From positions 1 through 64,000 of the IMG/VR virus record IMGVR_UViG_3300010165_000001: a stretch of 64,000 nt of DNA; one strand, written 5' to 3'. Positions 4,118 through 38,818 of the stretch are shown one piece after another. The position numbers were made by a program, and so were the translations under genes. The notes beneath the pieces are model-generated. The model was not told the DNA's origin and made no database searches. It saw only the letters and a program-made list of their open reading frames with translations. The stretch comes from a virus. Position 1 is the first letter of the stretch; each line of letters begins with the position of its first letter.

Positions 4118-4529
4118 ACTATATACAGATGGTGCAAGCTCATACAAGAGAGGTCTCTATGGCTCTGGATATGTAATTGTAGAAAACGACTCAGAAATCT
4201 ACAGTGCAAGTATTAAAGGAAAATACCCACAATTTGTTAAGTATAATAATGTTGCAGGTGAAATATTTGCTTGTCTTTATGGTGTTGAGAAGTGTATAGA
4301 ACTAGGTTATAAGTCTGTAGAAGTTTATGTAGATTATATTGGTTTGATTAAATGGCGTAGTGGTGCTTGGAGAGCTAAGAATGAATTAAGTCAAGCTTAT
4401 ATAAGTACAATGAGGCATCTAGAACAATATATTGATATAAACTTTAAAAAGGTGAAAGCACACTCAAAAGAATTAGGGGATAAATGGAATGAAAGGGCAG
4501 ATGACCTAGCAACAAGTTCAATCAACTAG
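4110..4529 (+). CDS. RNase H (RNase HI-like)
   Basis: YTDGAS..AGE..VDY..NERADDLA (DEDD pattern); internal ATG 4110 with AGAGAGGA SD preferred over track start 4071. Confidence 0.75.
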   Translation: MLKLYTDGASSYKRGLYGSGYVIVENDSEIYSASIKGKYPQFVKYNNVAGEIFACLYGVEKCIELGYKSVEVYVDYIGLIKWRSGAWRAKNELSQAYISTMRHLEQYIDINFKKVKAHSKELGDKWNERADDLATSSIN

Positions 4530-4539
4530 GAGTGGTAAT

Positions 4540-4686
4540 TTGGAATACGAGAACTTAGATATAGCTTTAGATTATATTAAAGGTAAAATACATGACCTAC
4601 AAATAGATAGTGAAGATGAGAAGAATAATGAACTTATTGATTCTTTAGAAGACTTATTATCATTTGTAGAACAAAATAGACAGTAA
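4540..4686 (+). CDS. hypothetical small acidic protein (48 aa, not in track)
   Basis: TTG start after AGGAGTGG; fills gap between RNase H and PhoH. Confidence 0.45.
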   Translation: MEYENLDIALDYIKGKIHDLQIDSEDEKNNELIDSLEDLLSFVEQNRQ

Positions 4687-4702
4687 GGGGATACTTGTAA
4701 AT

Positions 4703-5464
4703 ATGGCATACTTTGGAATTAGTGCAAAAAATGAAGAACAAAAATTAGCTTTGAGAGCTTTAGATAATGATAAACCTATAACAATTTTGACAGGTACTTC
4801 AGGAGTAGGTAAATCTTTATTAGCTCAAGCAGTTGGACTTGAAAAAGTTATAGAAACTAAAGAGTTTAAAAGGTTAATATATACTAGATTGCAAGTGGAT
4901 GTCGGGGCTGACAGAGGATTCCTACCAGGGAGTGATGGAGAGAAGTTATACCCTTATATCGCCCCCTTCTTAGATAATTTAGATGTTATGTCTTCTGAAA
5001 ATAGTAATATAAAAGATTATTTATTGTTTGAAGGTCAAGACGATAGTAAGAAAAAAGTTTTCTTTGATAGTATACAATCTATTCGAGGAAGGTCTTTAGA
5101 TGGATGGATTATTATAGATGAAGTTCAAAACTTAGATATACACACGATTACCGCTATAGCTACTAGGTTAAAAGCGGAAAATGCTAAGTTAATTCTGATG
5201 GGTAACTTTAGTCAAATTGATGATAAGAAATTAAGAAACCCTGAACAAAATGGTTTTTATCAATTACTAAAAGGTTTATATGAAAAAGACCCAGAACAAG
5301 AATTCTTTGACCATATTAATATGGTTCAAACACATAGACACCCTGTTGTAGATTTGATAGAAGATATTTTAAGGACAGATAAAAACGTAGACCCTGTATT
5401 CTATGAACTAGAGAACAGAGGAACATTAAAAGAATATAATAATAAATATGGTATAAAAGGTTAA
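4703..5464 (+). CDS. phoH: PhoH-like ATPase
   Basis: Walker A GTSGVGKS, Walker B IIDEVQNL, typical PhoH length. Confidence 0.85.
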   Translation: MAYFGISAKNEEQKLALRALDNDKPITILTGTSGVGKSLLAQAVGLEKVIETKEFKRLIYTRLQVDVGADRGFLPGSDGEKLYPYIAPFLDNLDVMSSENSNIKDYLLFEGQDDSKKKVFFDSIQSIRGRSLDGWIIIDEVQNLDIHTITAIATRLKAENAKLILMGNFSQIDDKKLRNPEQNGFYQLLKGLYEKDPEQEFFDHINMVQTHRHPVVDLIEDILRTDKNVDPVFYELENRGTLKEYNNKYGIKG

Positions 5465-5468
5465 GATA

Positions 5469-5732
5469 ATGATGGAATACAATAAAGAAACCGTACAAAA
5501 TAAAAATGAAATAGTATTTTATGATGAAATAGAAGAGAAGTATGTTAAGGAAGTTAATCATAATAGCGTACCTATCTCTTTTACAAAAATATTAGAAGAA
5601 GCTTTAGCGATACCTAATACAATTAAGTTTAAGAATTCTAGGAAGTATGAATCATTATTAGAGAACGATAATGTTACACCTATTAATAAAATAGAAACTA
5701 CAACATATACTACGAGATTAGAAGGCTTTTAA
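5469..5732 (+). CDS. hypothetical protein
   Basis: ORF; stop inside terminator stem. Confidence 0.6.
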   Translation: MMEYNKETVQNKNEIVFYDEIEEKYVKEVNHNSVPISFTKILEEALAIPNTIKFKNSRKYESLLENDNVTPINKIETTTYTTRLEGF

Positions 5733-5749
5733 TAGCCTTCTTTTTTTTT
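5721..5749 (+). terminator. rho-independent terminator
   Basis: GAAGGCT/AGCCTTC stem then T9. Confidence 0.75.
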
Positions 5750-5760
5750 ATATTTTATAC

Positions 5761-5789
5761 TTGTATTTTTAATAATTAGATGTTATAAT
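5761..5789 (+). promoter_or_regulatory. sigma-A-like promoter
   Basis: TTGTAT-17-TATAAT. Confidence 0.6.
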
Positions 5790-5821
5790 ATAGTTAAGTT
5801 AAAAGAAAGGATTGGTAAAAC

Positions 5822-5947
5822 ATGGAAGCAAAAGTAATTATAGAAGTAGAAGAAGCGAAAGAAATATTAGAAAAATTAGATAAAGGAACACCATTATATA
5901 ATAAGATTTTAAACCAAGTCGTAAATGCGAAAGGAGTAGGGAAATGA
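5822..5947 (+). CDS. hypothetical small protein (41 aa, not in track)
   Basis: ATG after GAAAGGA; ATGA overlap with next gene. Confidence 0.5.
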   Translation: MEAKVIIEVEEAKEILEKLDKGTPLYNKILNQVVNAKGVGK

Positions 5948-6378
5948 TTGTAATTAATAAAATAGTAGATGATATGGAAGAACTTTCCAGTAAAGCAGAT
6001 AATAAATATGTTTCTAATACATATAATAATGTAAGTAAATTAACAGATGAATATGAAGAAATTATGTTAGATAACTTAACACAAGCTACATTAAATATGT
6101 TAGAAACTCAAAATATATGTAAAGATGTACGTATGGATTCAGAGTTTGCAAATCAAATAAGAACACAAATTAGAATGAGAATTGAATGTCCAGAGTTAAA
6201 TTCAGAAGATTTTCATAACTTATGGTTAGAAGATATGAAAGAAAAGGGATATACTAGAGGTGATGTATTTTCTCAAAGAAATTTAACACACCCTAATGTT
6301 GTAGAATATAAATGTTTAAATAAAAATATCCACATTAAAGATAAAATTATAGATAACTTAGTAGATGCTTTTATTTAA
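5944..6378 (+). CDS. hypothetical protein
   Basis: ORF; SD AAAGGAG. Confidence 0.7.
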   Translation: MIVINKIVDDMEELSSKADNKYVSNTYNNVSKLTDEYEEIMLDNLTQATLNMLETQNICKDVRMDSEFANQIRTQIRMRIECPELNSEDFHNLWLEDMKEKGYTRGDVFSQRNLTHPNVVEYKCLNKNIHIKDKIIDNLVDAFI

Positions 6379-6395
6379 TACATGTTAAAACATAA

Positions 6396-6420
6396 TAAGG
6401 GTCTAATAAACCCTTATTTT
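6396..6420 (+). terminator. rho-independent terminator
   Basis: TAAGGG/CCCTTA stem then TTTT. Confidence 0.6.
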
Positions 6421-6451
6421 TAACTTAATATAAAAAAATAGTATAATTTAG

Positions 6452-6480
6452 TTGACAGTACATTTTAAACATGATATTAT
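6452..6480 (+). promoter_or_regulatory. sigma-A promoter
   Basis: TTGACA-17-TATTAT. Confidence 0.75.
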
Positions 6481-6509
6481 TAATATATAAGGTATAAGGA
6501 GGAAATCAA

Positions 6510-6935
6510 ATGGTTAAAATAAAAACTAAGAAAACTATGAACTTACCACAGTTGATTGAATGGGCGTGGGAAAATGATGTAACAAATACATGGCATAGAG
6601 CTAGTAATGTTGAAGAGTATATCTCGGAAGTATTTTTCGATGCAACGGGATTACCTCGGTTTTCAAACACATTCAATAAAAATGATACTTTCACAGTCGA
6701 AGTCGAAGAAGAAATTACGGAAGATACAGAAATACCTAGATTATTAACTACATTCAAAAAGATATATTTAAAAGATAACTTTGGTTATCAACGAGTGAGA
6801 ATTGATGATAACTATCCAATTAAACTCATGTTGGATAAAGCAGAAGCCCATAGTGAACCATTAGAAACACTACACCTTGTTAATAACGATGGCACACACA
6901 CTTTAATCTGGCGTGACGGGAGATTGATTGAATGA
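6510..6935 (+). CDS. hypothetical protein, paralog of 51123..51554
   Basis: Shares NLPQLIEW and NKNDTFTVEVEEEITEDT with the minus-arm copy. Confidence 0.7.
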   Translation: MVKIKTKKTMNLPQLIEWAWENDVTNTWHRASNVEEYISEVFFDATGLPRFSNTFNKNDTFTVEVEEEITEDTEIPRLLTTFKKIYLKDNFGYQRVRIDDNYPIKLMLDKAEAHSEPLETLHLVNNDGTHTLIWRDGRLIE

Positions 6936-23696: not shown

Positions 23697-24206
23697 ATGG
23701 AAGATTTAGACAGTAAATTTGACAGTATATTGGAAAGTATTTCAAATATGACTGATGAACAAATTGAAAGTATTAATAAGGATTTAAAAAGAAAAGAACA
23801 GAAGAGAGATTTAATTTCAAGGAAAGCTGAGAATAAAGATTTTGATTTAAATAAGATGTTTGGAGAGGTAATAGATATATACGGAAGTATATCGACAGAA
23901 GATATTCTTTATTCTTATGAAGATAGTTATAAACATCTATATACAAGTGAAGAATTTATGCACCAAGAATTAGACTCTATATGTATGTATGTTAATAACT
24001 TTTACAATGACAATAAAATGGAATATCCACCATTCTATATAGATACTTATTTTGGTATGGATATTTACTTACGATATAATGGTGAATTGTTTAGGTATTT
24101 CTATATGCAAGGGCAAGGAACAGCAGAAGGTTTCACTAAAGGTGGTTTAGCTAAGAGAGTTAAGTATTGCTTGAACTTAAATACTGAGACAGTTGAAAGA
24201 ATTTAA
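23697..24206 (+). CDS. hypothetical protein (last plus-arm gene)
   Basis: ORF; SD AAGGAGGA. Confidence 0.7.
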   Translation: MEDLDSKFDSILESISNMTDEQIESINKDLKRKEQKRDLISRKAENKDFDLNKMFGEVIDIYGSISTEDILYSYEDSYKHLYTSEEFMHQELDSICMYVNNFYNDNKMEYPPFYIDTYFGMDIYLRYNGELFRYFYMQGQGTAEGFTKGGLAKRVKYCLNLNTETVERI

Positions 24207-24245
24207 AACACACATTGGAGTCTTAAATAATAGGCTCCTTGTTTT

Positions 24246-24413
24246 ATGTTGACATTTATTAGCTAGTCTAATTATGTTGACATTTTATTTTTATGAATTT
24301 AAATTTTAAAATCATTAGTGTTGACATTTATATAATAAGGTACTACTTATATAATTACGGGGTGGGTGAACGGGTATGTATAAGAGAGATAAATAACTAA
24401 TCATGTTGACTTT
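24246..24413. repeat. four RTGTTGACWTT boxes
   Basis: 24246-57, 24274-85, 24318-29, 24403-13; none has a well-spaced -10. Confidence 0.6.
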
Positions 24414-24806
24414 ATATTTCAAGAAAAATGTAATTCTAAAAATTTTACCACCAAAATTTTACCAGAAAAATATAAGCCCCAAGAGAGTGTGGGGTAGGTC
24501 TCACACAACCCACATGTTATGGCATATTATAACGGGGGTACTAAATTGTACACAACTCAATAAAAGATAATTAAAATAGAGATAAAATAATTACCTTTTT
24601 TTTATATTAATTATTTTATTCTTTAAGAAATTATTTTATTATTTTAAATTAATTTTTTTATATATTTTAATTATTCATCACAGACCGATTCAACCTCTAT
24701 TCTAAGGACAATAAATCTTTTAGGTACTATTTATCCTAAATAGATATGAAGTACAATGAGAGGGCTCTGTGTGGCTCTCATAATGAATAGAGAAGCGGAC
24801 AAAAAA

Positions 24807-24828
24807 AAGACTATCAATTGATAGTCTT
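24807..24828 (-). terminator. terminator (perfect 22-nt palindrome)
   Basis: AAGACTATCAATTGATAGTCTT followed by T8 in minus sense. Confidence 0.75.
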
Positions 24829-24903
24829 AAGGAATTTAACTAATTTTTCCAAGTCTTTAGTATTCTTCTTTAGTTTGTTTATCTCTTTATCTAATTTGTC
24901 CAT
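24814..24903 (-). CDS. 29-aa Lys-rich helical peptide (not in track)
   Basis: MDKLDKEINKLKKNTKDLEKLVKFLKTIN; SD GAGGAGG; stop inside terminator. Confidence 0.45.
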   Translation of the reverse strand: MDKLDKEINKLKKNTKDLEKLVKFLKTIN

Positions 24904-24946
24904 TGTATAGCCTCCTCAATGCTTACTATGTGCCTCTGTATATCTA

Positions 24947-25426
24947 TTATAGGTCTCTCTCTTCTATTATGATTTGAGCTACCAGTTCAACTGCTAAGCA
25001 TACAAAATTAATTTTATCTTGGTCTGTAGGTAATACCTCTACATCGTTCATACAGTCAAATATAAGCTCCTCTTGTTCCTCCTCGTCCATATCGTACCAA
25101 TCTTCATGAGTCTCTGCGAGTTGTGTTGCTTCGTCTTGCATGAGGTCTAGCATATCTTCATACTCCGTAAAGCTTGTGTTAATCTCACTATTTAATAACT
25201 CCATAAGCTCAACATTTATAATATCGTAAAAAGTATCATGTGTTAAGTCCTCCACGTATTCAAGTATAACCGCTTCAATATCGTCCTCATATCTGTTAAA
25301 GAAATCTACCACGTCTGAAGTATAAATAAGTTCCCCGATTGCTCCGCTTTGTACTCCGTAAGTTGCTACGTCTTCGATTGTGCTTTGTTCTTGTCCCTGT
25401 AAAAATTCTTTTATTGTGTTTGTCAT
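24947..25426 (-). CDS. highly acidic protein (candidate DNA mimic / anti-restriction)
   Basis: 159 aa, very rich in D/E; last gene of the early array; conserved GGGAATTGAT leader. Confidence 0.7.
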   Translation of the reverse strand: MTNTIKEFLQGQEQSTIEDVATYGVQSGAIGELIYTSDVVDFFNRYEDDIEAVILEYVEDLTHDTFYDIINVELMELLNSEINTSFTEYEDMLDLMQDEATQLAETHEDWYDMDEEEQEELIFDCMNDVEVLPTDQDKINFVCLAVELVAQIIIEERDL

Positions 25427-25431
25427 AATAA

Positions 25432-25509
25432 ATCAATTCCCTTCTTATTTGTTACACTAAGTATATCATGGTTACAAGTTACTGTCAATAGTTTTTTTAA
25501 ACTTTTTTA
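25432..25509. repeat. 78-bp promoter+leader cassette, copy 1
   Basis: Apparently identical to 25748-25825; holds UP tract, TTGACA (rc 25483-88), TATACT, leader to SD. Confidence 0.9.
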
Positions 25510-25743
25510 AACTAATTTCCAGTTGATATCTGAAATGTATTCCTCTAGGTCTTCCAAAGTTTCTGCAAATTTGATTGATTGTAGAGTATCAGAAGTTACC
25601 ACAACCGCTTCTGTGTCATGAATTTCATTGTCTAAGATATTATTGTCTATGTGGTCGATATACTCCCAAATTAGGGCGTGCTTTACGCTCTCAAGTGTTG
25701 CTATACTAATTACGATTTGGTTTTCTTGGTTTAATAATTTCAT
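25507..25743 (-). CDS. acidic small protein
   Basis: ATG 25743, 10 nt after GGGA; track TTG start 25752 rejected. Confidence 0.65.
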   Translation of the reverse strand: MKLLNQENQIVISIATLESVKHALIWEYIDHIDNNILDNEIHDTEAVVVTSDTLQSIKFAETLEDLEEYISDINWKLV

Positions 25744-25747
25744 TTGT

Positions 25748-25825
25748 ATCAATTCCCTTCTTATTTGTTACACTAAGTATATCATGGTTACAAGTTACTG
25801 TCAATAGTTTTTTTAAACTTTTTTA
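25748..25825. repeat. 78-bp promoter+leader cassette, copy 2
   Basis: See 25432-25509. Confidence 0.9.
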
Positions 25826-26033
25826 TTTCTTTTTTCTAGGTGTTTTGCTTCCTTAACTTGTTAATACAAGTATATCATGAAGCGGTTATTGTGTCAACAA
25901 TTTTTTAAAAGTTTTTTAACTTCTTTTTTTAAGTGTTCCGCTTCCTTACTACACTCTATATATTACAGTATAATGATATAAAAGTCAATAGATTTTTGAA
26001 ACTTTTTTAAATAAATTATTTTGAAGAAAGGTA

Positions 26034-26062
26034 TTGACAAACCGTAGGAATTATTATATAAT
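26034..26062 (+). promoter_or_regulatory. consensus sigma-A promoter on the plus strand with no ORF downstream
   Basis: TTGACA-17-TATAAT. Confidence 0.7.
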
Positions 26063-26213
26063 GGAAGTGGACGGTTATTTTTTTATAAAAAAGGACGGAC
26101 TCCCCCCGAAACCCCTTCTTTGGTCTTGGGCTCCTTAACCTTATATCTATATTATACTATGTATTGTAAGAATTGTCAACACTTTTTATAAACTTTTTTA
26201 ATTAATTTAAGTA

Positions 26214-26242
26214 TTGACAACCAGTAGCAAAATTGATATAAT
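26214..26242 (+). promoter_or_regulatory. consensus extended -10 promoter on the plus strand with no ORF downstream
   Basis: TTGACA-17-(TGa)TATAAT. Confidence 0.7.
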
Positions 26243-26248
26243 TAAGAT

Positions 26249-26398
26249 GATACCATAAAATACCTATAATTTTTTTATATAATATTATTTTTATACTAAA
26301 ATTATCGTTCACTTCATTATCTCAAAAATATTCACATTTGTCAAGCCCTAATTTAAAATAAAATAACCGCTTCAAGAATTTAATCCGAAGCGGTTTAT
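26249..26398 (+). ncRNA. candidate ~150-nt sRNA (promoter 26214 to hairpin 26365-26395)
   Basis: No ORF above 3 codons; contains the complement of the early-leader motif (26264-26283); inference only. Confidence 0.25.
26365..26395 (-). terminator. terminator hairpin using the GAAGCGGTT stem
   Basis: AACCGCTTC/GAAGCGGTT; minus sense followed by ATTTTATTTT. Confidence 0.7.
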
Positions 26399-26407
26399 AT
26401 AAATTTT

Positions 26408-26788
26408 TTATTTCATGATATTTAGTAATGTTGTATGTAATTCTTCAATATCTGATTGGTCTACAATGTACAATACACCGTTAATCTTGATGCTTATAGC
26501 TTCTTGTCCGTAAACTTCAATTAAACGTCTTACAATTCCTTTTAATTCAACTGTCATGAATTTTGCATTGTCTTGCATGTAGTACCATTCAAGATTTAAG
26601 TTGTTATCTTCCATGATACGTTTTTCATCTTCTGAATACCATTGACCTTTGATTTCTGTTATTGTACATCCGCCCGCTTCTATTGTGATACTATTTACAT
26701 ACTCTTGAATACGTTTGTCCGCAATTTCCACGCCGTTGTTATCCTCTTTAGGTATAATAATCTCAATTTTATTTTGTAGTTTAAACAT
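26408..26788 (-). CDS. hypothetical protein
   Basis: ATG 26788, 10 nt after AAGGA; earlier TTG/ATG are too close to the SD. Confidence 0.7.
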   Translation of the reverse strand: MFKLQNKIEIIIPKEDNNGVEIADKRIQEYVNSITIEAGGCTITEIKGQWYSEDEKRIMEDNNLNLEWYYMQDNAKFMTVELKGIVRRLIEVYGQEAISIKINGVLYIVDQSDIEELHTTLLNIMK

Positions 26789-26884
26789 TTTCATCAATTC
26801 CTTTTCTCTTTGATTTGTTAATACAAGTATATCATCTATATGCTAGATTGTCAACAGTTTTTTTAAACTTTTTTTTACTAGGTT

Positions 26885-26950
26885 GGAAGCGGTTTGACCG
26901 CTTCCCTTACCTTACAATTTAATAATAACATGCTAGGTCTTGAAAGTCAA
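26885..26950 (-). promoter_or_regulatory. orphan promoter + stem-loop unit
   Basis: TTGACT (rc 26945-50)-17-TATTAT, then GGAAGCGGT-ttg-ACCGCTTCC 26885-26905; no ORF before the next promoter. Confidence 0.55.
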
Positions 26951-26959
26951 GCCTTTTTA

Positions 26960-27211
26960 TTAAAAGTTTTCAATTTCTTTTTTAGTCATTTTATCATGAC
27001 CATGTTGCATAATAAATTCGTTCACATGTCTTGCAGTAGTTTGTGAGTAGTAACCAATTTCTACAATGTTATTGTTTTCATCTAATTCACAAACATCTGT
27101 GTTATAGCTTGTTAAAATCTTGTGACCGTTGTCCAATACGTCTACGACTGCTTTTCCGTAAAAACTTTTTTGTGTACTGTAAATGCTTTCTAATTTGTAT
27201 GTGTTATTCAT
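26960..27211 (-). CDS. hypothetical small protein
   Basis: ORF; AAGGAATTGAT leader. Confidence 0.7.
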   Translation of the reverse strand: MNNTYKLESIYSTQKSFYGKAVVDVLDNGHKILTSYNTDVCELDENNNIVEIGYYSQTTARHVNEFIMQHGHDKMTKKEIENF

Positions 27212-27310
27212 AATTAATCAATTCCTTTTCTGTTTTATTTGTTATCTTAATAATATCATGGTTTCAAGTTACTGTCAATAGTTTTTTTTAAACTTTTTTT
27301 ATTTAGGTTA

Positions 27311-27375
27311 GAAGCGGTTTGACCGCTTCCCTTACCTTACAATTTAATAATATCATGTAGTGCTTAAGTTGTCAA
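27311..27375 (-). promoter_or_regulatory. orphan promoter + stem-loop unit (second copy)
   Basis: TTGACA (rc 27370-75)-17-TATTAT, then GAAGCGGT-ttg-ACCGCTTC 27311-27329; ~70 bp similar to 26885-26950. Confidence 0.55.
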
Positions 27376-27378
27376 CAC

Positions 27379-27510
27379 TTATTTTGAATATTTTACAATT
27401 TTATTTGCTTTTAGAAATGTAACATCTTGACGGTAGTTTTTTAATTCTTCTGCAAATCTTTCATTATTTTTCATTCCGATTAAGTTTAAAGTTGTTGTAA
27501 TTTTTTTCAT
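27379..27510 (-). CDS. 43-aa basic peptide (not in track)
   Basis: MKKITTTLNLIGMKNNERFAEELKNYRQDVTFLKANKIVKYSK; AAGGAATTGAT leader and own promoter (rc -35 27572-77). Confidence 0.45.
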   Translation of the reverse strand: MKKITTTLNLIGMKNNERFAEELKNYRQDVTFLKANKIVKYSK

Positions 27511-27580
27511 TTTTCATCAATTCCTTTTCTGTTTGATTTGTTACCTTAATATTAACACGTTGTTTCTAGGTTGTCAATAG

Positions 27581-27727
27581 TTATCTAATAAAAATATTTA
27601 TATTATCTTGAATTCTGATAAGATAATCAATTGTAACAACAATTCCAGTAGTACCGAATAAAGTAACTAGCTTGTCTGTCAGTGGTGTAGATTTATATTT
27701 TTTATTATTGAATTTAAATTTTATCAT
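27581..27727 (-). CDS. 48-aa peptide (not in track)
   Basis: SD AGGAGGT 8 nt upstream; own promoter (rc -35 27784-89). Confidence 0.55.
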   Translation of the reverse strand: MIKFKFNNKKYKSTPLTDKLVTLFGTTGIVVTIDYLIRIQDNINIFIR

Positions 27728-27792
27728 TTTGTGTTACCTCCTAATTAATTTGTATCTAAATTATAACATACAGTAAATAAAACTGTCAAACA

Positions 27793-27867
27793 TTAATTTT
27801 TATTTTTTTCTTCCATGTAACCATAAATAAAAGCACTCATCATCACAAAACCAAATATAAATATCAT
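27793..27867 (-). CDS. 24-aa hydrophobic peptide (not in track)
   Basis: MIFIFGFVMMSAFIYGYMEEKNKN; SD AAGGAG; own promoter (rc -35 27920-25). Confidence 0.3.
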   Translation of the reverse strand: MIFIFGFVMMSAFIYGYMEEKNKN

Positions 27868-28114
27868 TTCTTTCAACTCCTTATCTTGTATCTAAACTAT
27901 AACATATAATACTAAATAAAGTCAAACATTAATTTTAAGCCCTAGAGAGCAAAGAGAAGTCCATTCTGTATACATTCAATAATAATTAGGATAAATACAT
28001 CATATAATAGAAGAAACTAAATAAACACACTCCAAAGTACCCTGTATAAGATAATACAATGAAGCGGTTAAAATAGAGCATAAAAAAATAATTTAAAAAA
28101 GTTTTAAAAACCTA

Positions 28115-28143
28115 TTGCAATTTATATCAAACTGTAGTATCAT
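28115..28143 (+). promoter_or_regulatory. plus-strand promoter with UP tract, no ORF downstream
   Basis: TTGCAA-17-TATCAT preceded by AAAAAAGTTTTAAAAACCTA. Confidence 0.6.
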
Positions 28144-28149
28144 TATAAG

Positions 28150-28225
28150 TGAAGTAAGAAAGAGGAGACCAGCCTGATAACCTCTATAAACCTCGGATAG
28201 GTTGGGGAGAAGGCACCCCCTAAAC
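28150..28225 (+). ncRNA. candidate structured sRNA (three adjacent GC-rich hairpins)
   Basis: AGAGG/CCTCT 28161-85, AACCT/AGGTT 28189-203, GGGG/CCCC 28204-19 in AT-rich DNA; strand uncertain because an antisense promoter sits at 28356. Confidence 0.25.
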
Positions 28226-28386
28226 TCATTTAAGTAGTAGACAACTCTATAAATTATTTATATAATTCCCCTAGAATACAATTGAACACAATATAAAAAC
28301 TTTTTTATATATAAAAAAGTCATCTCACTTTAATTATACACCTATTTTAACCACTTGTCAATACCCAATTTTACACTATTTTGTTA

Positions 28387-28415
28387 TTGACATTCATGCC
28401 GAATTTTGATATAAT
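28387..28415 (+). promoter_or_regulatory. consensus extended -10 promoter on the plus strand, no ORF downstream
   Basis: TTGACA-17-(TGa)TATAAT. Confidence 0.7.
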
Positions 28416-28954
28416 GGAATTGATGACCTAAAATACCTATAATTTTTTTATATAATACTATTTGAATAGAAGCGGATGCAATATATTAATTACTGAATAA
28501 GGTTGCCCGATTCATATCTGTAGCAAATCCTTTAGTCAATTAATACGTTACCATATTAAAGTAAACTATATAATTTTTTTTATATAATAACAAATGAATA
28601 GAAGAGGTCATAAACTAATAACTATTGAATAATGTTATATACAACTATATAATTTTTTTATATAATAACAAATGAATACAACCGCTTCAAATACTATAAG
28701 AATATTATACAATTGATTACAAGCCATTAGCCAACGAATACAATTCATTAACTATTCATTAGTACACAATATAATATCATTAGCATTGATTAGCCCACAA
28801 TTAGATAGTAAAATTATAGAATAAAATAAGTATTGAAGCGGACACAATACAATAACTATTGAATAATGTTTACTACAATAAGTTAAAAAGTTTAATAGGT
28901 GGGTAGGCAATATAAATATAATGTTATCTTATGGGGTGGTTAAAGAATTCCCAG

Positions 28955-29194
28955 GTTCTAATATATTTTAGTTATTCTATATTTTAGTTATTCTATAAAT
29001 TATTTATTCTATAATAAAGTTATCCTATAATAAAATTATACAATATAAAGGTTAAATAGTTCCTGTAGTATCTTATAATAAAGTTATTCTATAAATAAGT
29101 TAATCAATAAATAAATTAATCAATAAATAAATTAATCAATATTAAGGTTATTCAATTTTTCTTTTATTCTATACAGTAATTAATATATAATTTT
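28955..29194. repeat. degenerate 16-bp tandem array, ~15 units (consensus GTTATTCTATAAATAA)
   Basis: Units in register every 16 bp from 28955 or 28971 to 29178 or 29194, including three near-perfect TTAATCAATAAATAAA units at 29100-29147. Confidence 0.85.
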
Positions 29195-29221
29195 TTTATA
29201 TAAATTTAAACAAATAAAAAA

Positions 29222-29243
29222 CCCTAGGAATCTAATCCCAGGG
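29222..29243 (-). terminator. rho-independent terminator
   Basis: CCCTGGGA/TCCTAGGG stem (one G-U) then T6 in minus sense. Confidence 0.7.
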
Positions 29244-29267
29244 AATTCTATAATTTTTTTATATTAT

Positions 29268-29504
29268 TTAAATATATTGTTTTAATTCTTGCATATTATG
29301 AGAAACTTTTTTACTAACATAATAATTAGATAATTTTTTTATAATTTCCCACTGTTCGTTTATTTCATCTACAATAATAAATTCGTTATTATTTAATTCA
29401 TATACTATAGGTTCATCATAAACATATAATAAATTTTCCAATTCATTTTCATTTGGTTCAGTTGTAATCAATTCATTTTCTAATACATAATAATTTTTTG
29501 TCAT
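29268..29504 (-). CDS. hypothetical small acidic protein
   Basis: ORF; AAAGGATTGAT leader preceded by motif copy. Confidence 0.7.
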   Translation of the reverse strand: MTKNYYVLENELITTEPNENELENLLYVYDEPIVYELNNNEFIIVDEINEQWEIIKKLSNYYVSKKVSHNMQELKQYI

Positions 29505-29533
29505 TTTAAATCAATCCTTTTTTTATAATTTTT

Positions 29534-29800
29534 TTATATTTCTAACATTGCATTTAAATCTTCTAACACTTCAATAATATAATTATGAAATAATATAGGT
29601 GTAACATTAGAATTTTTATATAACTTTTCTTCATCTGTTATAATTGCATTATTTAATGCTATGCTATCTTGAATTTGAAAATAATTATTTAATTCTTTTA
29701 ATTCATTTAAAGTTACATCATAATTGAGTGCAATTCTATTTATTTCTTCATCAGTTCCAAAAAGTACAATTTTAATAATTTCATTTAATTTTTTATTCAT
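29534..29800 (-). CDS. hypothetical small protein
   Basis: Internal ATG 29800 after GGGA SD; track start 29932 would overlap the upstream gene and its hairpin. Confidence 0.6.
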   Translation of the reverse strand: MNKKLNEIIKIVLFGTDEEINRIALNYDVTLNELKELNNYFQIQDSIALNNAIITDEEKLYKNSNVTPILFHNYIIEVLEDLNAMLEI

Positions 29801-29849
29801 AATATCATATCCCTTTTTTATAAATTTTTTATTTAATTCAGAAGCGGTT

Positions 29850-30128
29850 TTAATTCTTAACCGCTTCATTATGTCTTGCTTCTGCTTCTGCATGAGTATC
29901 AGGGAAATCGAACGTGCGGACTGTTTTGCCAAATTCTGATGTTACAGTCGTTTTAGTGTGGTAGTAACCAAAGATAGTATATTTTTTATTTGTACGTCTC
30001 TCACCTTTCCAACGTTCATCAATAAAGCTAGTTTTGAATTGGTCATGTGTTAAGTACATTTCTATTGTTTCACCGTCTAAATTTGTGTAAGTCATTTTAA
30101 TTGCTTTCATTTGGTTTAAGTTTGTCAT
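29850..30128 (-). CDS. hypothetical small protein
   Basis: ATG 30128 after AGGATTTGAT; stop lies in GAAGCGGTT hairpin. Confidence 0.65.
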   Translation of the reverse strand: MTNLNQMKAIKMTYTNLDGETIEMYLTHDQFKTSFIDERWKGERRTNKKYTIFGYYHTKTTVTSEFGKTVRTFDFPDTHAEAEARHNEAVKN

Positions 30129-30309
30129 AATAATCAAATCCTATTCTATAATTTTTTTATATAATTCTAATATTCGTTATTTGCTAGGTGGTTTGTCTTA
30201 TTTGTTATCTTAATAATAACATGTATCTTGTAAGCTGTCAATACTTTTCTTTAACTTTTTTAAAAAGTTTTTTTAAGATGTGCTTGATTACCTTACAAAT
30301 ACAATTTTA

Positions 30310-30408
30310 CTACAGTTTGTTTAGTGAGTCAATAGCTTTTTTAAATTCTTTTTGCAATTTCTCAATTTCTTTTTTATCTTGCTTGAGTTTCTTAAGTAGT
30401 AAACTCAT
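30310..30408 (-). CDS. 32-aa Lys-rich helical peptide (not in track)
   Basis: MSLLLKKLKQDKKEIEKLQKEFKKAIDSLNKL; GGGGG SD; own promoter (rc -35 30515-20). Confidence 0.4.
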   Translation of the reverse strand: MSLLLKKLKQDKKEIEKLQKEFKKAIDSLNKL

Positions 30409-30576
30409 AATATATTGCCCCCAATTCTATAATTTTTTTTTATTTAATTTCCTTATTTGCTTAAGTTCCTTTTTGATTACCTTACAAATACTATTATATC
30501 AAGTTATAAGATAATTGCAATAGTTTTTTTAAATTTGGTAGTGCTTTAACGTGGTAAAAGGTTAAAGCACTTTTTT

Positions 30577-30744
30577 TTATTTTGCTACAATCCCATCAAC
30601 TAAAGTTAAACCATTTATTTTTTCAATTATTTTAGTTACGGTAATATTATATTGTGTATCATTTAATTCACTTTCTATATAATCCCCTACAACTAAATTA
30701 TTTTTTTGTACTTTTACGTTTTTTATAATTTGAACAGTTTTCAT
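30577..30744 (-). CDS. 55-aa protein (not in track)
   Basis: SD TAGGAGAA; followed by an 11-bp-stem hairpin. Confidence 0.55.
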   Translation of the reverse strand: MKTVQIIKNVKVQKNNLVVGDYIESELNDTQYNITVTKIIEKINGLTLVDGIVAK

Positions 30745-30786
30745 ATTTTATTTTCTCCTATTCTATAATTTTTTTATTTAAATATA

Positions 30787-31089
30787 TTAATCAAGAATTT
30801 CAATTTGATTAATTATTTTTTGATTTCTAATGATATATAACATTCTATTAATATATAAAAATGTTAAACCGTATTTATGAAACATCGTTCCATATTCTTG
30901 TGGTAACTGTTTTTTAAAAAACTTTTGTTTCTGATAAAACTCAACGTAACCCTGTTTGGTTTGTATAAGTAACTGCAAATATTCGCCTTGTGGTTTACCA
31001 TATACGATATAATTTTCATTACGTCTGTCTATAGCACCATATAAACCAAATACCCCTATTATATTTTGTATATCTTTATTCTTTTTCAA
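30787..31089 (-). CDS. hypothetical protein
   Basis: TTG start after GGAAGGTGA; ~230-nt leader from promoter with rc -35 at 31331-36. Confidence 0.6.
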   Translation of the reverse strand: MKKNKDIQNIIGVFGLYGAIDRRNENYIVYGKPQGEYLQLLIQTKQGYVEFYQKQKFFKKQLPQEYGTMFHKYGLTFLYINRMLYIIRNQKIINQIEILD

Positions 31090-31405
31090 TTAAATCACCT
31101 TCCGTATTTTTTAATAAGTTATCTATTTGTTATCTGTCTAATACTATACATGATATTAATATAAAAAACAACCCCCCAAATTAAAGAAATTTTTTTAGGT
31201 CTTAATTTTTGTTTTATATGGAAGAAACTGGAAATTAAGCAAAAAATAAATAGTATAATTTTTTTATATAATTCTGTATATAAGACAGACAGACCCCTCT
31301 AATTATTATGATAAAGGATAATACCCGATTTGTCAATACACAATTTTACACTTTTTTTAAATTGTCATAAAGTGTAAAATTTCTCATTTAATTTATTTAA
31401 AAGTA

Positions 31406-31433
31406 TTGAAATTATATATCAATCTGCTATAAT
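31406..31433 (+). promoter_or_regulatory. plus-strand promoter for 31492..31773
   Basis: TTGAAA-16-TATAAT, then the shared initial transcribed sequence AGTATTTGTAAGGTAATCAA. Confidence 0.6.
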
Positions 31434-31491
31434 AGTATTTGTAAGGTAATCAAACAACCTTAACAAATTAAATGAAAAGGATTGATATATA

Positions 31492-31773
31492 ATGAAAATT
31501 TACAATGAGGACAACACACAATTAATCGAAGTAATAGACGGATTAGACAACGGTCTAGCAATTAGCCAAACATTTAGAAATAGCACATATGAATTCTATA
31601 AAGAAAATAATAATATTCTTGTAAGATTAGACAGTGAAACAATTGGGCATATTGAGAGAATTCCATATGGCACATATGAACAGTTAAGATTTGAAGATTG
31701 GGACACTGAAAAAATTCTAATAATTGAATGGTTGGATGAGTTAGATGCTTATATTTTTGAATATGAAGTTTAA
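31492..31773 (+). CDS. hypothetical small protein (only plus-strand gene in the early region)
   Basis: ORF; AAAGGATTGAT leader as in the minus-strand genes. Confidence 0.65.
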   Translation: MKIYNEDNTQLIEVIDGLDNGLAISQTFRNSTYEFYKENNNILVRLDSETIGHIERIPYGTYEQLRFEDWDTEKILIIEWLDELDAYIFEYEV

Positions 31774-31794
31774 TATATAAAAAAATTATAGAAT

Positions 31795-31826
31795 ACACTG
31801 GGAATAATATTCCTGGTGTATTTTTT
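31795..31826 (+). terminator. rho-independent terminator
   Basis: ACACTGGGA/TCCTGGTGT stem (G-U pairs) then ATTTTTT. Confidence 0.7.
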
Positions 31827-31868
31827 ATGTTAATTAAATTTTTTTATAGGGCGATATTTCTTCATTCC

Positions 31869-32140
31869 TACTTATGCTTTTTACGATTTGATAAAAGTTA
31901 GAATATACTTATGCTTTTTACGTTTTCAATTTACTTCTAAATATGAATTGGAAATACTAGAAACATACTTAGGCTTTTTTACGATTGGACAAAACCTCAT
32001 TCCTACTTGTCTTTTTTACGTTTTGATATTTCTTTATTCATACTTATGATTTTTACTCTTACAGAGACACTACAGAGTGGTCTCCTTGGACTTCATTTCA
32101 TTTTAGGATTAATCCTACCTTCTTTATTCATACTTGTCTA
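31869..32140. repeat. six degenerate TACTTRKSTTTTTACG-type repeats
   Basis: Copies start near 31869, 31906, 31966, 32004, 32041, 32131. Confidence 0.6.
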
Positions 32141-32179
32141 AAACAAGCTCCTATTATCTCTCTGATTAAACATAAAAAA

Positions 32180-32203
32180 AACTACCCAACTTAATGAGTA
32201 GTT
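32180..32203 (-). terminator. rho-independent terminator
   Basis: AACTACTCA/TGGGTAGTT stem then T8 in minus sense. Confidence 0.7.
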
Positions 32204-32208
32204 AACAT

Positions 32209-33114
32209 TTATGGTATAAGTAAATCTAGTTCTTCTATTGTTTCATATACTAATGGTTCTTCATCGAGTATTTCATATCCATTATTATCGTATGCTCGAA
32301 TAGTAATTTTATTGTAATTTTCATGAGGTTTAATAATAGTAATCGCATCCTTACTTTCAATTGCTACAAAATTAACTTTATCATCCTTGCAATCAATTGA
32401 ATAAGTAAAATAACATGAGTCTAAATGTTTTATAACCTCTTCGATTACATCATCTACTAAAGCATTTTCACTTATAACAGAATTTAGTTCTTCAATACTA
32501 CCAATTTCTACTGATTTTACGTACCCTACTAAGTTTGATAAATACAACTTACCTTTATTCTCGAAAAATTCTAAGTCTCTTCCAGGAAATTTTACACTAA
32601 TTTTATCACCTGTATCATCAAAAGCATAGCCTGTATCAACTAAATAATTGAAAACCTTAACTAGCTTATCCTCTTTTAAAATACTACCAATCTCTTTTTG
32701 TACATTCCTACTTAGGAAAGTTTCTAATTCTTGAGAAGTCATTTCAAAATTTAGGTCTCCGATAAATAAAACGAAGTCTTTTTCTGAACCTTTATTTATA
32801 ACAATCTCTTTACTATCTAACTTGATATATACTTGGAAATCTCCTGATAAATATTCAAGGTCAAAATCTAGTTCATACTTGTCTAAAAGTGATTCTAGTT
32901 CTACTAGATTCTCATTCTTAATTTGCTTAATAATATTATTTAAAGCAATTTTTTCACCTTCAATATCAAATAATACTGCATCTATACTTGTGACTTTTGA
33001 ACCTATATATTCCTTTACGTTTTTTTTAAGTTTCTCGTCACCTTCTATTCTTTCTGTAAGTAAATCATCTAATAATTCTAGTACCTTTGTTTGGTATCTT
33101 GTTTTATTTGTCAT
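32209..33114 (-). CDS. hypothetical acidic protein (301 aa)
   Basis: ORF; SD TAGGAGGA. Confidence 0.7.
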   Translation of the reverse strand: MTNKTRYQTKVLELLDDLLTERIEGDEKLKKNVKEYIGSKVTSIDAVLFDIEGEKIALNNIIKQIKNENLVELESLLDKYELDFDLEYLSGDFQVYIKLDSKEIVINKGSEKDFVLFIGDLNFEMTSQELETFLSRNVQKEIGSILKEDKLVKVFNYLVDTGYAFDDTGDKISVKFPGRDLEFFENKGKLYLSNLVGYVKSVEIGSIEELNSVISENALVDDVIEEVIKHLDSCYFTYSIDCKDDKVNFVAIESKDAITIIKPHENYNKITIRAYDNNGYEILDEEPLVYETIEELDLLIP

Positions 33115-35226: not shown

Positions 35227-35631
35227 CTATTTAATTTGATATAATATTTCTTTTATAGCATAGATTTCTGGTACGCTTAGTCTCATAACCCCAGAGTATA
35301 CTAAGAATATAGATGATATAATCCCAATAGCAGATACCCCAAATAATAACACTACGATAATTATTCCAGAATCTGTAAACTCAATATCTTCAAAATAATC
35401 AATTTCAAAAACACTATTGTCTCTATCTGTTCTTTTAACTTTACTGTATTGTTTTTTGATAAATAATACAGTAAAAAATACAAATAGTAAAATCAAGAAA
35501 GCTCCTACAAGCTGACAAATACCTGTAATAATTTCATATTTAATCAATGAATCCCAAGCATGTGTACCTAACCCATTTAACTTCTCACTCAATACGTCTA
35601 CTCTATCTAATACCTTATCTTCTAGTTTCAT
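35227..35631 (-). CDS. membrane protein, paralog of 33647..34018
   Basis: See 33647..34018. Confidence 0.7.
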   Translation of the reverse strand: MKLEDKVLDRVDVLSEKLNGLGTHAWDSLIKYEIITGICQLVGAFLILLFVFFTVLFIKKQYSKVKRTDRDNSVFEIDYFEDIEFTDSGIIIVVLLFGVSAIGIISSIFLVYSGVMRLSVPEIYAIKEILYQIK

Positions 35632-36245
35632 TTGTTTCCTCCAATTTTAATTTTTTTAATATCTAGATTAAACTCTACCATTCCTTTATCTTCTAAACCA
35701 AAGATTTGGAAAGTATTATTATCTTTATACAATACAAACTTATCTTTAACAACTTTCATATCCATATCTTCATCAAACATTGATTGAATATACTTAAGAA
35801 CTGTGTTGTGTCCTGTAAGTTCTTTTAAGTAACTCTCTACGTCTTTACGTGTTAGGTAAGAATTATTCAATTTATAAATTCTAGTTCTAACTGTTCCTGC
35901 ACCAATAAACATATTGTCTACATGACAGTTCGTTCTATCTCCGTCTTTAAAACATACATTACCTGTTCTAATATCTCCACGTGACTGACTAATCAATTCT
36001 GGAAATGTACTTGCGATTAAGTGTGCTCTTGAGTATGATGTTTTCTTAGGATGTAGGAAATATACAATTTCATGAGCAGTGTGCTTAGGATGATACTTTC
36101 GTGTCATAGTCCCTTTAATCAATTTCTTAGTTTTTCTATTACGAATCATTCCATTTATATTCGCTTCAAATAAACTATTTTGTGGGATAACCCTCCAGCC
36201 TGTTTCAGGTTGGATTGAGCTATCTAAATGTTCTCTTGTCTTCAT
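35628..36245 (-). CDS. HNH homing-endonuclease-like protein (NUMOD4-like N-terminus)
   Basis: GWRVIP..NGMIRN..K.IKG then HLIASTF.. and DGDRTNCHVDNM; ATG 36245, 7 nt after GGAGGAG. Confidence 0.6.
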   Translation of the reverse strand: MKTREHLDSSIQPETGWRVIPQNSLFEANINGMIRNRKTKKLIKGTMTRKYHPKHTAHEIVYFLHPKKTSYSRAHLIASTFPELISQSRGDIRTGNVCFKDGDRTNCHVDNMFIGAGTVRTRIYKLNNSYLTRKDVESYLKELTGHNTVLKYIQSMFDEDMDMKVVKDKFVLYKDNNTFQIFGLEDKGMVEFNLDIKKIKIGGNK

Positions 36246-36274
36246 AATCATTCTCCTCCTATAAATCTATCGTT

Positions 36275-38717: not shown

Positions 38718-38741
38718 ATAAGTACTCCTTTTTATTATTAG

Positions 38742-38818
38742 TGCCCTGTATAGGATTTGAACCTATACAATCACATGGTTTAGGAGACCATGGCTCTATC
38801 CTATTGAGCTAACAGGGC
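38742..38818 (-). tRNA. tRNA-Arg(CCU), 77 nt, no encoded CCA, 8-nt variable region
   Basis: Hand-folded cloverleaf: acceptor GCCCTGT/ACAGGGC, D GCTC/GAGC with GG, anticodon stem ATGGT/ACCAT, loop CTCCTAA, T arm ATAGG-TTCAAAT-CCTAT. Confidence 0.75.

What the first reader, a model, noticed from the sequence alone, without database searches (positions are those of the whole stretch)
28955..29194. A ~240-bp array of about 15 degenerate 16-bp tandem repeats in ORF-free DNA
Reading in 16-bp register from 28971 gives gttattctatatttta, gttattctataaatta, tttattctataataaa, gttatcctataataaa, attatacaatataaag, gttaaatagttcctgt, agtatcttataataaa, gttattctataaataa, gttaatcaataaataa, attaatcaataaataa, attaatcaatattaag, gttattcaatttttct and tttattctatacagta. 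Weaker units flank these at 28955 and 29179. The phase is kept across the whole array. The core TTCTATAA is also the 5' part of the 13-copy early motif. No ORF spans the array. A phased array like this fits iterons of a replication origin, a cooperative binding platform for a phage DNA-binding protein (silencing or partition-like), or a terminal-repeat or packaging boundary.
Basis: partly seen in the sequence, partly recalled or inferred. Interest (0 to 1): 0.75.

Follow-up and report, generated by a model that had tools for sequence, protein, structure and literature searches.

The report
Tandem repeats beside predicted phage genome end
The 16-bp repeat array is real, and it sits four bases from a sequence that marks the physical genome end in related Staphylococcus phages, so it is most likely a repeat block at the terminal-repeat boundary, possibly a docking site for the DNA-packaging machinery, and not a replication origin.

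Summary
There are 15 phased 16-bp units at 28955-29194 in ORF-free DNA. Lag-16 autocorrelation is 0.67, against at most 0.52 in shuffles.

The window is a Baoshanvirus (Twortvirinae, Herelleviridae) genome. On the minus strand the array runs straight into ACCTG|GGAATTCTTTAACC. This is the junction motif that starts the long terminal repeat (LTR) in Kayvirus and other Twort-like phages, and read-start pile-ups there map it as the left physical end. It occurs once in the window. A homologue of the inner LTR boundary lies near 24490.

The predicted LTR is therefore about 24493-28951. The array would then be the extreme right end of the unique genome. That is the position of the known variable 35-bp repeat of phage K/812.

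All seven relatives with this junction carry the array, in register with the cut. They have 9 to about 30 units and differ by whole-unit indels. Each unit has a near-invariant core (TTATTCWATA) and a free 6-nt spacer. The same core lies inverted and dispersed inside the LTR start, also in phage K.

My best reading is a junction-adjacent variable repeat that acts as a pac-like protein-binding platform. Physical ends and binding were not tested.

The parts
28955..29194 (.). Array of 15 phased 16-bp units. Each has the core TTATTCWATA and a 6-nt variable spacer. Predicted to be the extreme right end of the non-redundant genome.
28938..28956 (-). Junction motif ACCTG|GGAATTCTTTAACC. The predicted nick, and so the left physical end, lies between 28952 and 28951, with the LTR extending towards lower coordinates.
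   Evidence: It is the only match in the window, with 0 mismatches; 0.04 matches are expected even at up to 3 mismatches. It matches the junctions of K, Stab22, S25-3 and PG-2021_18. It also matches the mapped left end of IME-SA1/2/3, GGAATTCTTTTACC... (PMC3896407).
28890..28954 (-). Conserved first ~65 nt of the predicted LTR, C-rich on the minus strand. Present in all Baoshanvirus relatives.
28581..28866 (-). Six dispersed copies of the array core, in the orientation opposite to the array. They lie 86-362 nt inside the predicted LTR, within four 65-nt modules.
   Evidence: PWM scan. The largest such cluster in 100 shuffles had 4 hits, against 6 observed. Positions +86, +123/128 and +284 recur in relatives, and K has copies at +58, +85 and +149.
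24493..28951 (-). Predicted long terminal repeat, about 4.46 kb. It holds orthologues of phage K gp014 (TreN, 27581-27727), gp015 (27379-27510), gp017 (25507-25752) and gp018 (24947-25426).
24470..24550 (+). Homologue of the inner LTR boundary of K and Stab22. The window reads ...GAGAGTGTG|GGGTAGGTC..., against AAGTACCTG|GGTAGACC in the K reverse complement.
   Evidence: alignment A1; the region is conserved in the same six relatives
29222..29243 (-). Intrinsic terminator that ends the leftward gene block just before the array. Homologous terminators exist in K and Stab22.
29268..29504 (-). Last gene before the array, 78 aa. Orthologue of Stab22 g013, which lies inside Stab22's 12.2-kb LTR.
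28333..28415 (.). Divergent pair of perfect TTGACA-17-TATAAT promoters: minus strand 28361-28333 and plus strand 28387-28415. These are the first promoters inside the predicted LTR.

Best explanation
**What it is.** The array is a variable-number tandem repeat at the extreme right end of the non-redundant genome of a Baoshanvirus phage. It lies 4 nt from the site ACCTG|GGAATTCTTTAACC where the long terminal repeat, and so the left physical end of virion DNA, is predicted to begin.

**Anatomy.** Each 16-bp unit carries a 10-nt core (TTATTCWATA) in register with the cut. The same core lies in the opposite orientation, dispersed over the first ~370 bp of the LTR, so the cut is flanked by head-to-head motif sets.

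**Proposed mechanism (inferred).** The array is the outer half of a pac-like recognition region. It would be a multi-site platform that loads the end-recognising protein (small terminase or an accessory factor) on concatemeric DNA and positions the nick that starts the LTR. Copy number drifts by whole-unit slippage or unequal recombination.

**Shown versus inferred.**
- Shown: the array, its phase, the conserved core, the junction-motif homology, the inner-boundary homology and the copy-number variation.
- Inferred: that this junction is the active end in this phage, and that any protein binds the array.
For: **The junction motif marks a genome end in relatives.**
- It is unique in the window and identical, except at one degenerate position, to the Kayvirus junction.
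- The variant AGAACCTG|GGAA occurs at the K-type junction of PG-2021_18.
- Read-start pile-ups in Kayvirus put the left end at GGAATTCTTTTACC (PMC3896407).
- The 12-bp bracket TAAGTACCTGGG is described as characteristic of Twort-like phages (PMC4111496).
- Many curated records start exactly there, including A5W, Fi200W and Sa83, the last 'inferred from NGS coverage'.

**A second boundary is present.** A homologue of the inner boundary lies at about 24490.

**A known counterpart exists.** In phage 812/K a variable 35-bp tandem repeat occupies the same position (PMC6445280; sequence).

**The array is conserved with the junction.** All 7 relatives carrying the junction have the array starting right at it. 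The dominant phase is 0 mod 16 in 7 of the 8 arrays. Unit counts run from 9 to about 30, and the end units are shared between relatives.

**The unit looks constrained.** Among 57 distinct units, T1 is kept in 56/57, T2 in 57/57, A8 in 56/57 and T9 in 57/57. Positions 11-16 are free.

**The core also lies inside the LTR.** Inverted core copies occur inside the LTR start in the window, its relatives and K.
Against: - No read-start or coverage data were available, so the physical end is inferred from homology alone.
- Homology to the K LTR beyond the first ~20 nt is not distinguishable from that of other AT-rich stretches.
- Stab22 keeps orthologues of the genes on both sides of the array inside one 12.2-kb LTR. 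If the prediction is right, the boundary has moved in this lineage.
- Stab22, S25-3 and PG-2021_18 have the junction but no repeat.
- Phage 812h1 lacks its 35-bp repeat entirely and is viable (PMC6445280). Such arrays are therefore not generally essential.
- The Kayvirus repeat has an unrelated sequence although the cut site is shared.
- The inner boundary of the window lacks the inverted copy of the bracket.
Confidence: 0.5

Rival explanations
1. The array is a neutral by-product. It would be a minisatellite created and resized by slippage or unequal recombination next to a recurrently nicked concatemer junction, with no sequence-specific function.
For: - Copy number varies freely, from 9 to about 30 units, by whole-unit indels.
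- Related genera with the same junction have no repeat.
- The Kayvirus counterpart ranges from 2 to more than 20 copies and is absent from viable phage 812h1 (PMC6445280).
- In K each unit copies the junction-proximal sequence.
Against: Positions 1, 2, 8 and 9 are kept in at least 56 of 57 distinct units, while positions 11-16 vary in the same units. Uniform recent amplification does not predict this. The same core is conserved inside the LTR start across genera.
Confidence: 0.25
2. The array is a transcription-related element. It could be a binding array for a phage or host regulator that insulates or silences early promoters of the adjacent terminal repeat. Alternatively it could be a cluster of -10-like TATAAT boxes that soaks up RNA polymerase.
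For: - Many units contain TATAAT or TATAAA.
- The array lies between a terminator and the densest cluster of consensus sigma-A promoters.
- In BS1/2, JDF86, Golestan101 and J51Sa, a TTGACA-17-TATAAT promoter points into the array.
Against: - That promoter is absent in the window and in PSU4.
- The unit's -35-like hexamer TTATTC matches TTGACA at only 2 of 6 positions, and no array site appears among the listed promoter matches.
- K and Stab22 have the same terminator-promoter region without any array.
Confidence: 0.1
3. The array is a set of iterons of a phage replication origin, bound by a phage initiator.
For: Phased direct repeats in AT-rich non-coding DNA.
Against: - There is no DnaA box, even with 1 mismatch, between 21540 and 37355.
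- No gene with an assigned replication function was found among those scanned around the array.
- There is no skew inflection at the array.
- The array is absent from related genera that share the replication genes.
- The 16-bp period puts successive sites on opposite faces of the helix.
Confidence: 0.07
4. The array is a DNA-entry pause signal at the inner edge of the right terminal repeat, analogous to the repeat-rich injection-stop region of phage T5. It would hold back the rest of the genome until immediate-early LTR genes are expressed.
For: - The predicted LTR contains orthologues of four of K's five earliest transcripts, gp014, gp015, gp017 and gp018 (PMC9241854).
- Kayvirus has a unique left end and diffuse right ends (PMC3896407). 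That fits packaging that starts at the left, so the right end would be ejected first. This step is my inference.
Against: I know of no report of two-step DNA transfer in SPO1-like or Twort-like phages, and related genera lack the array.
Confidence: 0.04

Closest known systems
[quoted passage not shown]
   Same: It has the same position, directly upstream of the ...ACCTG|GGAATTC... junction that starts the LTR. Its copy number is variable, and it is non-coding.
   Different: The unit length (35 vs 16 bp) and sequence are unrelated. The Kayvirus unit does not contain the TTATTCWATA core. Here the core is mirrored inside the LTR. The junction lies between the g013-like gene and TreN, not upstream of treA.
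LTR-bracketing sequences of Twort-like phages (TAAGTACCTGGG / CCCAGGTACTTA; left end GGAATTCTTTTACC...; PMC4111496, PMC3896407)
   Same: The window has TTAGAACCTGGG followed by GAATTCTTTAACC. That is 10 of 12 for the bracket, and 13 of 14 for the LTR start counted as GGAATTCTTTAACC, in which the last two G's of the bracket are shared. It is unique in the window.
   Different: The inverted partner at the inner boundary is interrupted by a hairpin insertion. Use of this site as the end has not been shown for this genus.
pac/cos recognition arrays of other phages (SPP1 pacL-pacC-pacR, P1 pac hexamer repeats on both sides of the cut, lambda cosB R sites, T7 SRL/SRR repeats beside the terminal repeat). 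These comparisons are from my own knowledge and were not checked here.
   Same: Short repeated motifs flank a specific cleavage site on both sides, and the array is phased.
   Different: No binding protein has been identified. There are many more sites here, with a 16-bp tandem spacing. Comparable arrays are dispensable in sister genera.
Iterons of plasmid and phage origins
   Same: Tandem, phased direct repeats with a conserved core.
   Different: There is no initiator gene, DnaA box or mapped unwinding element, and the array sits at a genome-end junction.

Membership tests
Twort-like LTR left junction (terminase cut site) | Sequence (T/G)(A/T)ACCTG|GGAA(TT/AA)CTTT(T/A)A at the start of the LTR | tested here: met
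   Window minus strand 28956-28938 reads ACCTGGGAATTCTTTAACC. It was compared with K, Stab22, S25-3 and PG-2021_18.
Twort-like LTR left junction (terminase cut site) | Single copy per unit genome | tested here: met
   One match in 64 kb at up to 3 mismatches. The 166-bp query spanning the junction and LTR start gave one place per record in four relatives; BS1 and BS2 each gave a second place, which I did not examine.
Twort-like LTR left junction (terminase cut site) | Inverted copy of the 12-bp bracket at the inner LTR boundary | tested here: inconclusive
   The inner-boundary region is homologous, but the bracket is disrupted: TAAG[CCCCAAGAGAGTG]TGGGG.
Twort-like LTR left junction (terminase cut site) | Read-start pile-up and two-fold coverage of the repeat | not testable with these tools
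   No reads were available. SRR7698816 holds the identical locus.
Kayvirus right-terminal variable tandem repeat | Lies immediately upstream of the LTR start | tested here: met
   The array starts 4 nt from the predicted cut.
Kayvirus right-terminal variable tandem repeat | Copy number varies between isolates | tested here: met
   From 9 to about 30 units in eight arrays, differing by whole-unit indels.
Kayvirus right-terminal variable tandem repeat | 35-bp unit TATTAYTACTACTAAGTACCTTTGTTATGTACTAC | tested here: not met
   The unit is 16 bp, with a TTATTCWATA core and no sequence similarity.
pac-type terminase recognition region | Repeated motifs on both sides of the cleavage site | tested here: met
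   Tandem cores lie on the array side and inverted dispersed cores on the LTR side.
pac-type terminase recognition region | Bound by small terminase and required for packaging | not testable with these tools
   This needs EMSA or footprinting and deletion mutants. The Kayvirus counterpart is dispensable (PMC6445280).
Replication-origin iterons | Adjacent initiator gene, DnaA boxes or an unwinding element | tested here: not met
   No DnaA box between 21540 and 37355. Most neighbouring genes scanned belong to PHROG families of unknown function, and none has a replication assignment.
Replication-origin iterons | Origin activity | not testable with these tools
   This needs marker-frequency or 2D-gel mapping.

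The most novel reading that the evidence does not exclude
The array, the junction motif and the first few hundred bp of the LTR form a movable 'genome-end cassette'. In Baoshanvirus this cassette sits in the middle of the ancestral Tre gene block. It would thereby redefine which early genes are terminally duplicated: only orthologues of K's gp014-gp018 block, whose transcripts are the earliest in K. The phased TTATTCWATA array would be the nucleation platform, in effect the pac site, for the end-making enzyme. That would be the first defined recognition element for SPO1-like or Twort-like terminal-repeat generation.
Probability: 0.25. Interest if true: 0.65.

Novelty: new variant of a known kind. 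Interest (0 to 1): 0.45.

Why it matters
Twort-like staphylococcal phages are leading candidates for phage therapy, yet how their long terminal repeats are recognised and generated is not known.

- If the prediction holds, it fixes the genome ends of Baoshanvirus. All seven deposited or assembled genomes examined here are opened arbitrarily, none of them at this junction.
- It would show that the LTR boundary can move relative to the gene order.
- It offers a concrete conserved motif, TTATTCWATA, tandem outside the cut and inverted inside it, as a testable recognition element for packaging.
- Practically, the array is a ready-made strain-typing marker. It is also a likely source of misassembly.

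Tried and rejected
- **Known RNA families:** an Rfam scan of 24000-32500 at E<=1 gave only one chance miRNA hit.
- **Folding:** the array as single-stranded DNA (z +1.37) and the GC-rich stretch 28130-28326 as RNA (z -0.18) fold no better than shuffles.
- **DnaA boxes:** none near the array, and the window-wide count is at chance level.
- **Flanking inverted repeat:** the 9-bp repeat bracketing the array, AGAATTCCC...GGGAATTCT, is seen in the fold. It is not conserved in relatives, so I treat it as incidental.
- **Longer homology to K and Stab22:** a global alignment of the first 480 nt of their LTRs with the window's LTR start gave z of about 5.6 against shuffles. Other AT-rich control segments scored similarly, so homology beyond about 20 nt is not claimed.
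- **IMG/VR scan for the junction 18-mer:** one unrelated GC-rich coding hit, L015, rejected as chance.
- **Metagenome scan** for the LTR-start 21-mer: nothing found.
- **Contigs ending at the junction:** I looked for these as a proxy for physical ends. The source contig (JGI 3300020216, 140,196 bp) and the Logan contig both run through it. No deposited Baoshanvirus record is opened there.
- **Literature:** I found no paper on Baoshanvirus termini.

Full report
**1. Observation.**
Tandem Repeats Finder reports period 16, 11.5 copies and 70% matches at 28970-29153. Autocorrelation is 0.674 at lag 16, and 0.59 at lags 32 and 48. The maximum over all lags in 5000 shuffles was 0.52. No ORF of 30 aa or more overlaps 28911-29267. 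The array is real and far beyond chance.

**2. Genomic context.**
The window is a Staphylococcus Twortvirinae phage. Its conserved part is 94-97% identical to Baoshanvirus genomes: RSM-J51Sa, PSU4, Golestan101-M, JDF86 and phiSA_BS1/2. The source is a 140,196-bp JGI metagenome contig, and an identical locus is in a Logan assembly of SRR7698816.
- Plus-strand genes run to 24206, and minus-strand genes run from 24947 to the end of the window.
- Orthologues of phage K terminal-repeat genes lie left of the array: gp018 at 24947-25426, gp017 at 25507-25752, gp015 at 27379-27510 (97.7% identical) and gp014/TreN at 27581-27727.
- The genes right of the array (29268-29504 and 29850-30137) are orthologues of Stab22 g013 and g012.
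- The array lies in a ~2-kb ORF-free gap. It is bordered on the right by a minus-strand terminator at 29243-29222 and on the left by a dense set of perfect TTGACA-17-TATAAT promoters.

**3. The key lead: the junction motif.**
All relatives share a conserved ~65-nt block that ends ...GGTTAAAGAATTCCCAGG, and the array starts immediately after it.
- On the minus strand this reads ...TTAGAACCTG|GGAATTCTTTAACCACC.
- In phage K, the right end of the unit genome meets the right LTR at ...CTAAGTACCTG|GGAATTCTTTTACCTC. Stab22 has CGTACCTG|GGAAAACTTTTACC. S25-3 and PG-2021_18 have ...GTACCTG|GGAAAAC and ...AGAACCTG|GGAAAAC.
- The pattern ACCTGGGAATTCTTTWACC matches the window once, with no mismatch. Only 0.04 matches are expected even when 3 mismatches are allowed.
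- Li et al. mapped the unique left physical end of Kayvirus IME-SA1/2/3 by read-start pile-up to GGAATTCTTTTACCTCTC..., with an ~8-kb LTR (PMC3896407).
- El Haddad et al. describe the 12-bp bracket TAAGTACCTGGG / CCCAGGTACTTA as characteristic of Twort-like phages (PMC4111496).
- Many curated records begin exactly at this sequence. Examples are A5W, Fi200W, Stab20 and Sa83, the last 'inferred from NGS coverage data'.

**4. The other boundary.**
Window 24380-24620 aligns with the reverse complement of the inner LTR boundary of K and Stab22 (alignment A1). The window reads ...AAAAATATAAGCCCCAAGAGAGTGTG|GGGTAGGTC...TATGGCA.... K reads ...AAAAAATAAGTACCTG|GGTAGACC...GTGGCA.... The same region is conserved in the same six relatives.
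- The predicted LTR of this phage is therefore about 24493-28951, or ~4.46 kb.
- If the deposited records are circular permutations, the same two landmarks give about 3.5-8.8 kb in the relatives (my arithmetic).
- The predicted LTR holds orthologues of K gp014, gp015, gp017 and gp018, plus two other genes (26408-26797 and 26960-27211) with no K hit. K's five most abundant transcripts at 2 min are gp014-gp018 (PMC9241854).
- In Stab22 the orthologous genes on both sides of the array position lie inside one 12.2-kb LTR. The g013-TreN gap there has the terminator and promoters but no junction motif and no array. K likewise has none.
- So in Baoshanvirus the block 'array, junction, LTR start' sits where related genera have only an intergenic region. 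If it is used, the LTR boundary has moved.

**5. The array in relatives.**
Only six phages in the phage collection and one IMG/VR contig carry the conserved block, and all of them have the array.
- Cores that stay in register with the junction number 13 in the window, 9 in PSU4, 26 in BS1/BS2, 9 in Golestan101, 11 in JDF86 and 12 in J51Sa. The IMG/VR contig has 15 cores in its dominant register and 4 in register with the junction, after a 2-nt shift.
- Spacing 16 accounts for 92 of the core-to-core distances. The next most frequent spacing occurs 16 times.
- Arrays differ by whole-unit insertions or deletions while sharing end units. This holds for the window against PSU4 and for JDF86 against BS2.
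- Among 57 distinct in-phase units, T1 is kept in 56/57, T2 in 57/57, A3 in 46, T4 in 46, T5 in 41, C/T6 in 48, A8 in 56/57, T9 in 57/57 and A10 in 40. At positions 11-16 no base exceeds 36/57.
- A near-invariant core with a free spacer at fixed phase argues for sequence-specific constraint, not recent amplification alone.

**6. The core on the other side of the cut.**
A weight matrix of the core gives 8 plus-strand hits in the array. It also gives a minus-strand cluster of 6 hits at 28581-28857, which is 86-362 nt inside the predicted LTR, with none in the array's orientation. Block shuffles never gave more than 4.
- Hits at +86, +123/128 and +284 recur in relatives.
- K has the perfect core at +58, with further copies at +85 and +149, in the same orientation. 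The sequence ACTTATTCTATAGTTAT at about +58 is also present in Stab22, S25-3 and PG-2021_18.
- The predicted cut is therefore flanked head-to-head: a tandem array outside and dispersed copies inside.

**7. Interpretation.**
Two things are well supported by homology. The array lies at the unit-genome/LTR junction, and it is the positional counterpart of the variable 35-bp repeat of phage 812/K. That repeat ranges from 2 to more than 20 copies and is absent in 812h1 (PMC6445280).

My preferred mechanism is inferred. The array is the outer arm of a pac-like recognition region that loads the end-making protein and sets the nick at ACCTG|GG.

The main rival is a functionless junction minisatellite. 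Arrays are missing in Stab22, S25-3 and PG-2021_18. The Kayvirus one is dispensable and unrelated in sequence.

A transcriptional role is weakened because the promoter that points into the array in four lineages is missing in the window and PSU4.

An origin function has no support. An entry-pause role like that of phage T5 is speculative.

**8. Limits.**
No reads were available, so the physical end and the doubled coverage are predictions. Similarity to the K LTR beyond ~20 nt is not specific. The inner bracket is disrupted. No binding protein is identified.

**9. Verdict.**
This is a new variant of a known kind of feature, a terminus-adjacent variable repeat of Twort-like phages. Two points go beyond what is described: a conserved core mirrored across the predicted cut, and an apparently relocated LTR boundary. 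Interest is moderate.

Noticed in passing
window 26265-31790 (for example 26265, 28438, 28648, 29186, 29249, 29524, 30147, 31254; 31775 on the minus strand): The motif TATAATTTTTTTATAT has 10 exact copies, and 18 with up to 2 mismatches against 3.1 expected. It lies about 20 nt downstream of consensus promoters and on both sides of terminators, in either orientation. It is also present in K (4850-5040) and Stab22 (6140-6330). It is a candidate operator or processing site for early transcripts.
   Followed up: partly
window 26034-26062, 26214-26242, 28387-28415 (+ strand): Three perfect TTGACA-17-TATAAT promoters point against the minus-strand Tre genes, with no ORF downstream. The one at 28387 would transcribe towards the predicted genome end and, in concatemers, through the array. 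They may drive antisense or non-coding RNAs.
   Followed up: no
window 28448-28878: Four copies of a ~65-nt module (28448, 28580, 28658, 28814) fill the first ~500 nt of the predicted LTR. Several carry a GAAGCGG-like motif, and the inverted array cores lie within them. They overlap the 78-bp and 31-bp repeats found by TRF.
   Followed up: partly
window 25432-25509, 25748-25825, 26798, 27222, 30185: A 78-nt promoter/5'-leader module is repeated five times upstream of Tre genes, and two of the copies are 100% identical.
   Followed up: no
window 28130-28330 (- strand): A GC-rich non-coding stretch lies downstream of the consensus promoter at 28361-28333. It is positionally like the K region next to the reported small RNA snc002. 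Its fold is no better than shuffles (z -0.18) and it has no Rfam match.
   Followed up: partly
window 28944-28952 and 29240-29248: A 9-bp perfect inverted repeat, AGAATTCCC / GGGAATTCT, brackets the array. The right arm is part of the terminator. It is not conserved in relatives, so it is probably incidental.
   Followed up: yes
window 24438-24494: A 14-nt tandem duplication (AAAAATTTTACCAC, 2.4 copies) and a hairpin (24477-24494) lie directly outside the predicted inner LTR boundary. Golestan101-M has a further duplication there.
   Followed up: partly
L003 (phiSA_BS2) 4144-5227 and 5729-6812: A tandem duplication, with a period of about 1585 bp, of three small genes lies just beyond this phage's array.
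   Followed up: no
window 38741-38818 (-) and 35628-36251 (-): A tRNA-Arg(CCT) gene and an HNH endonuclease gene lie in the block to the right of the array.
   Followed up: no
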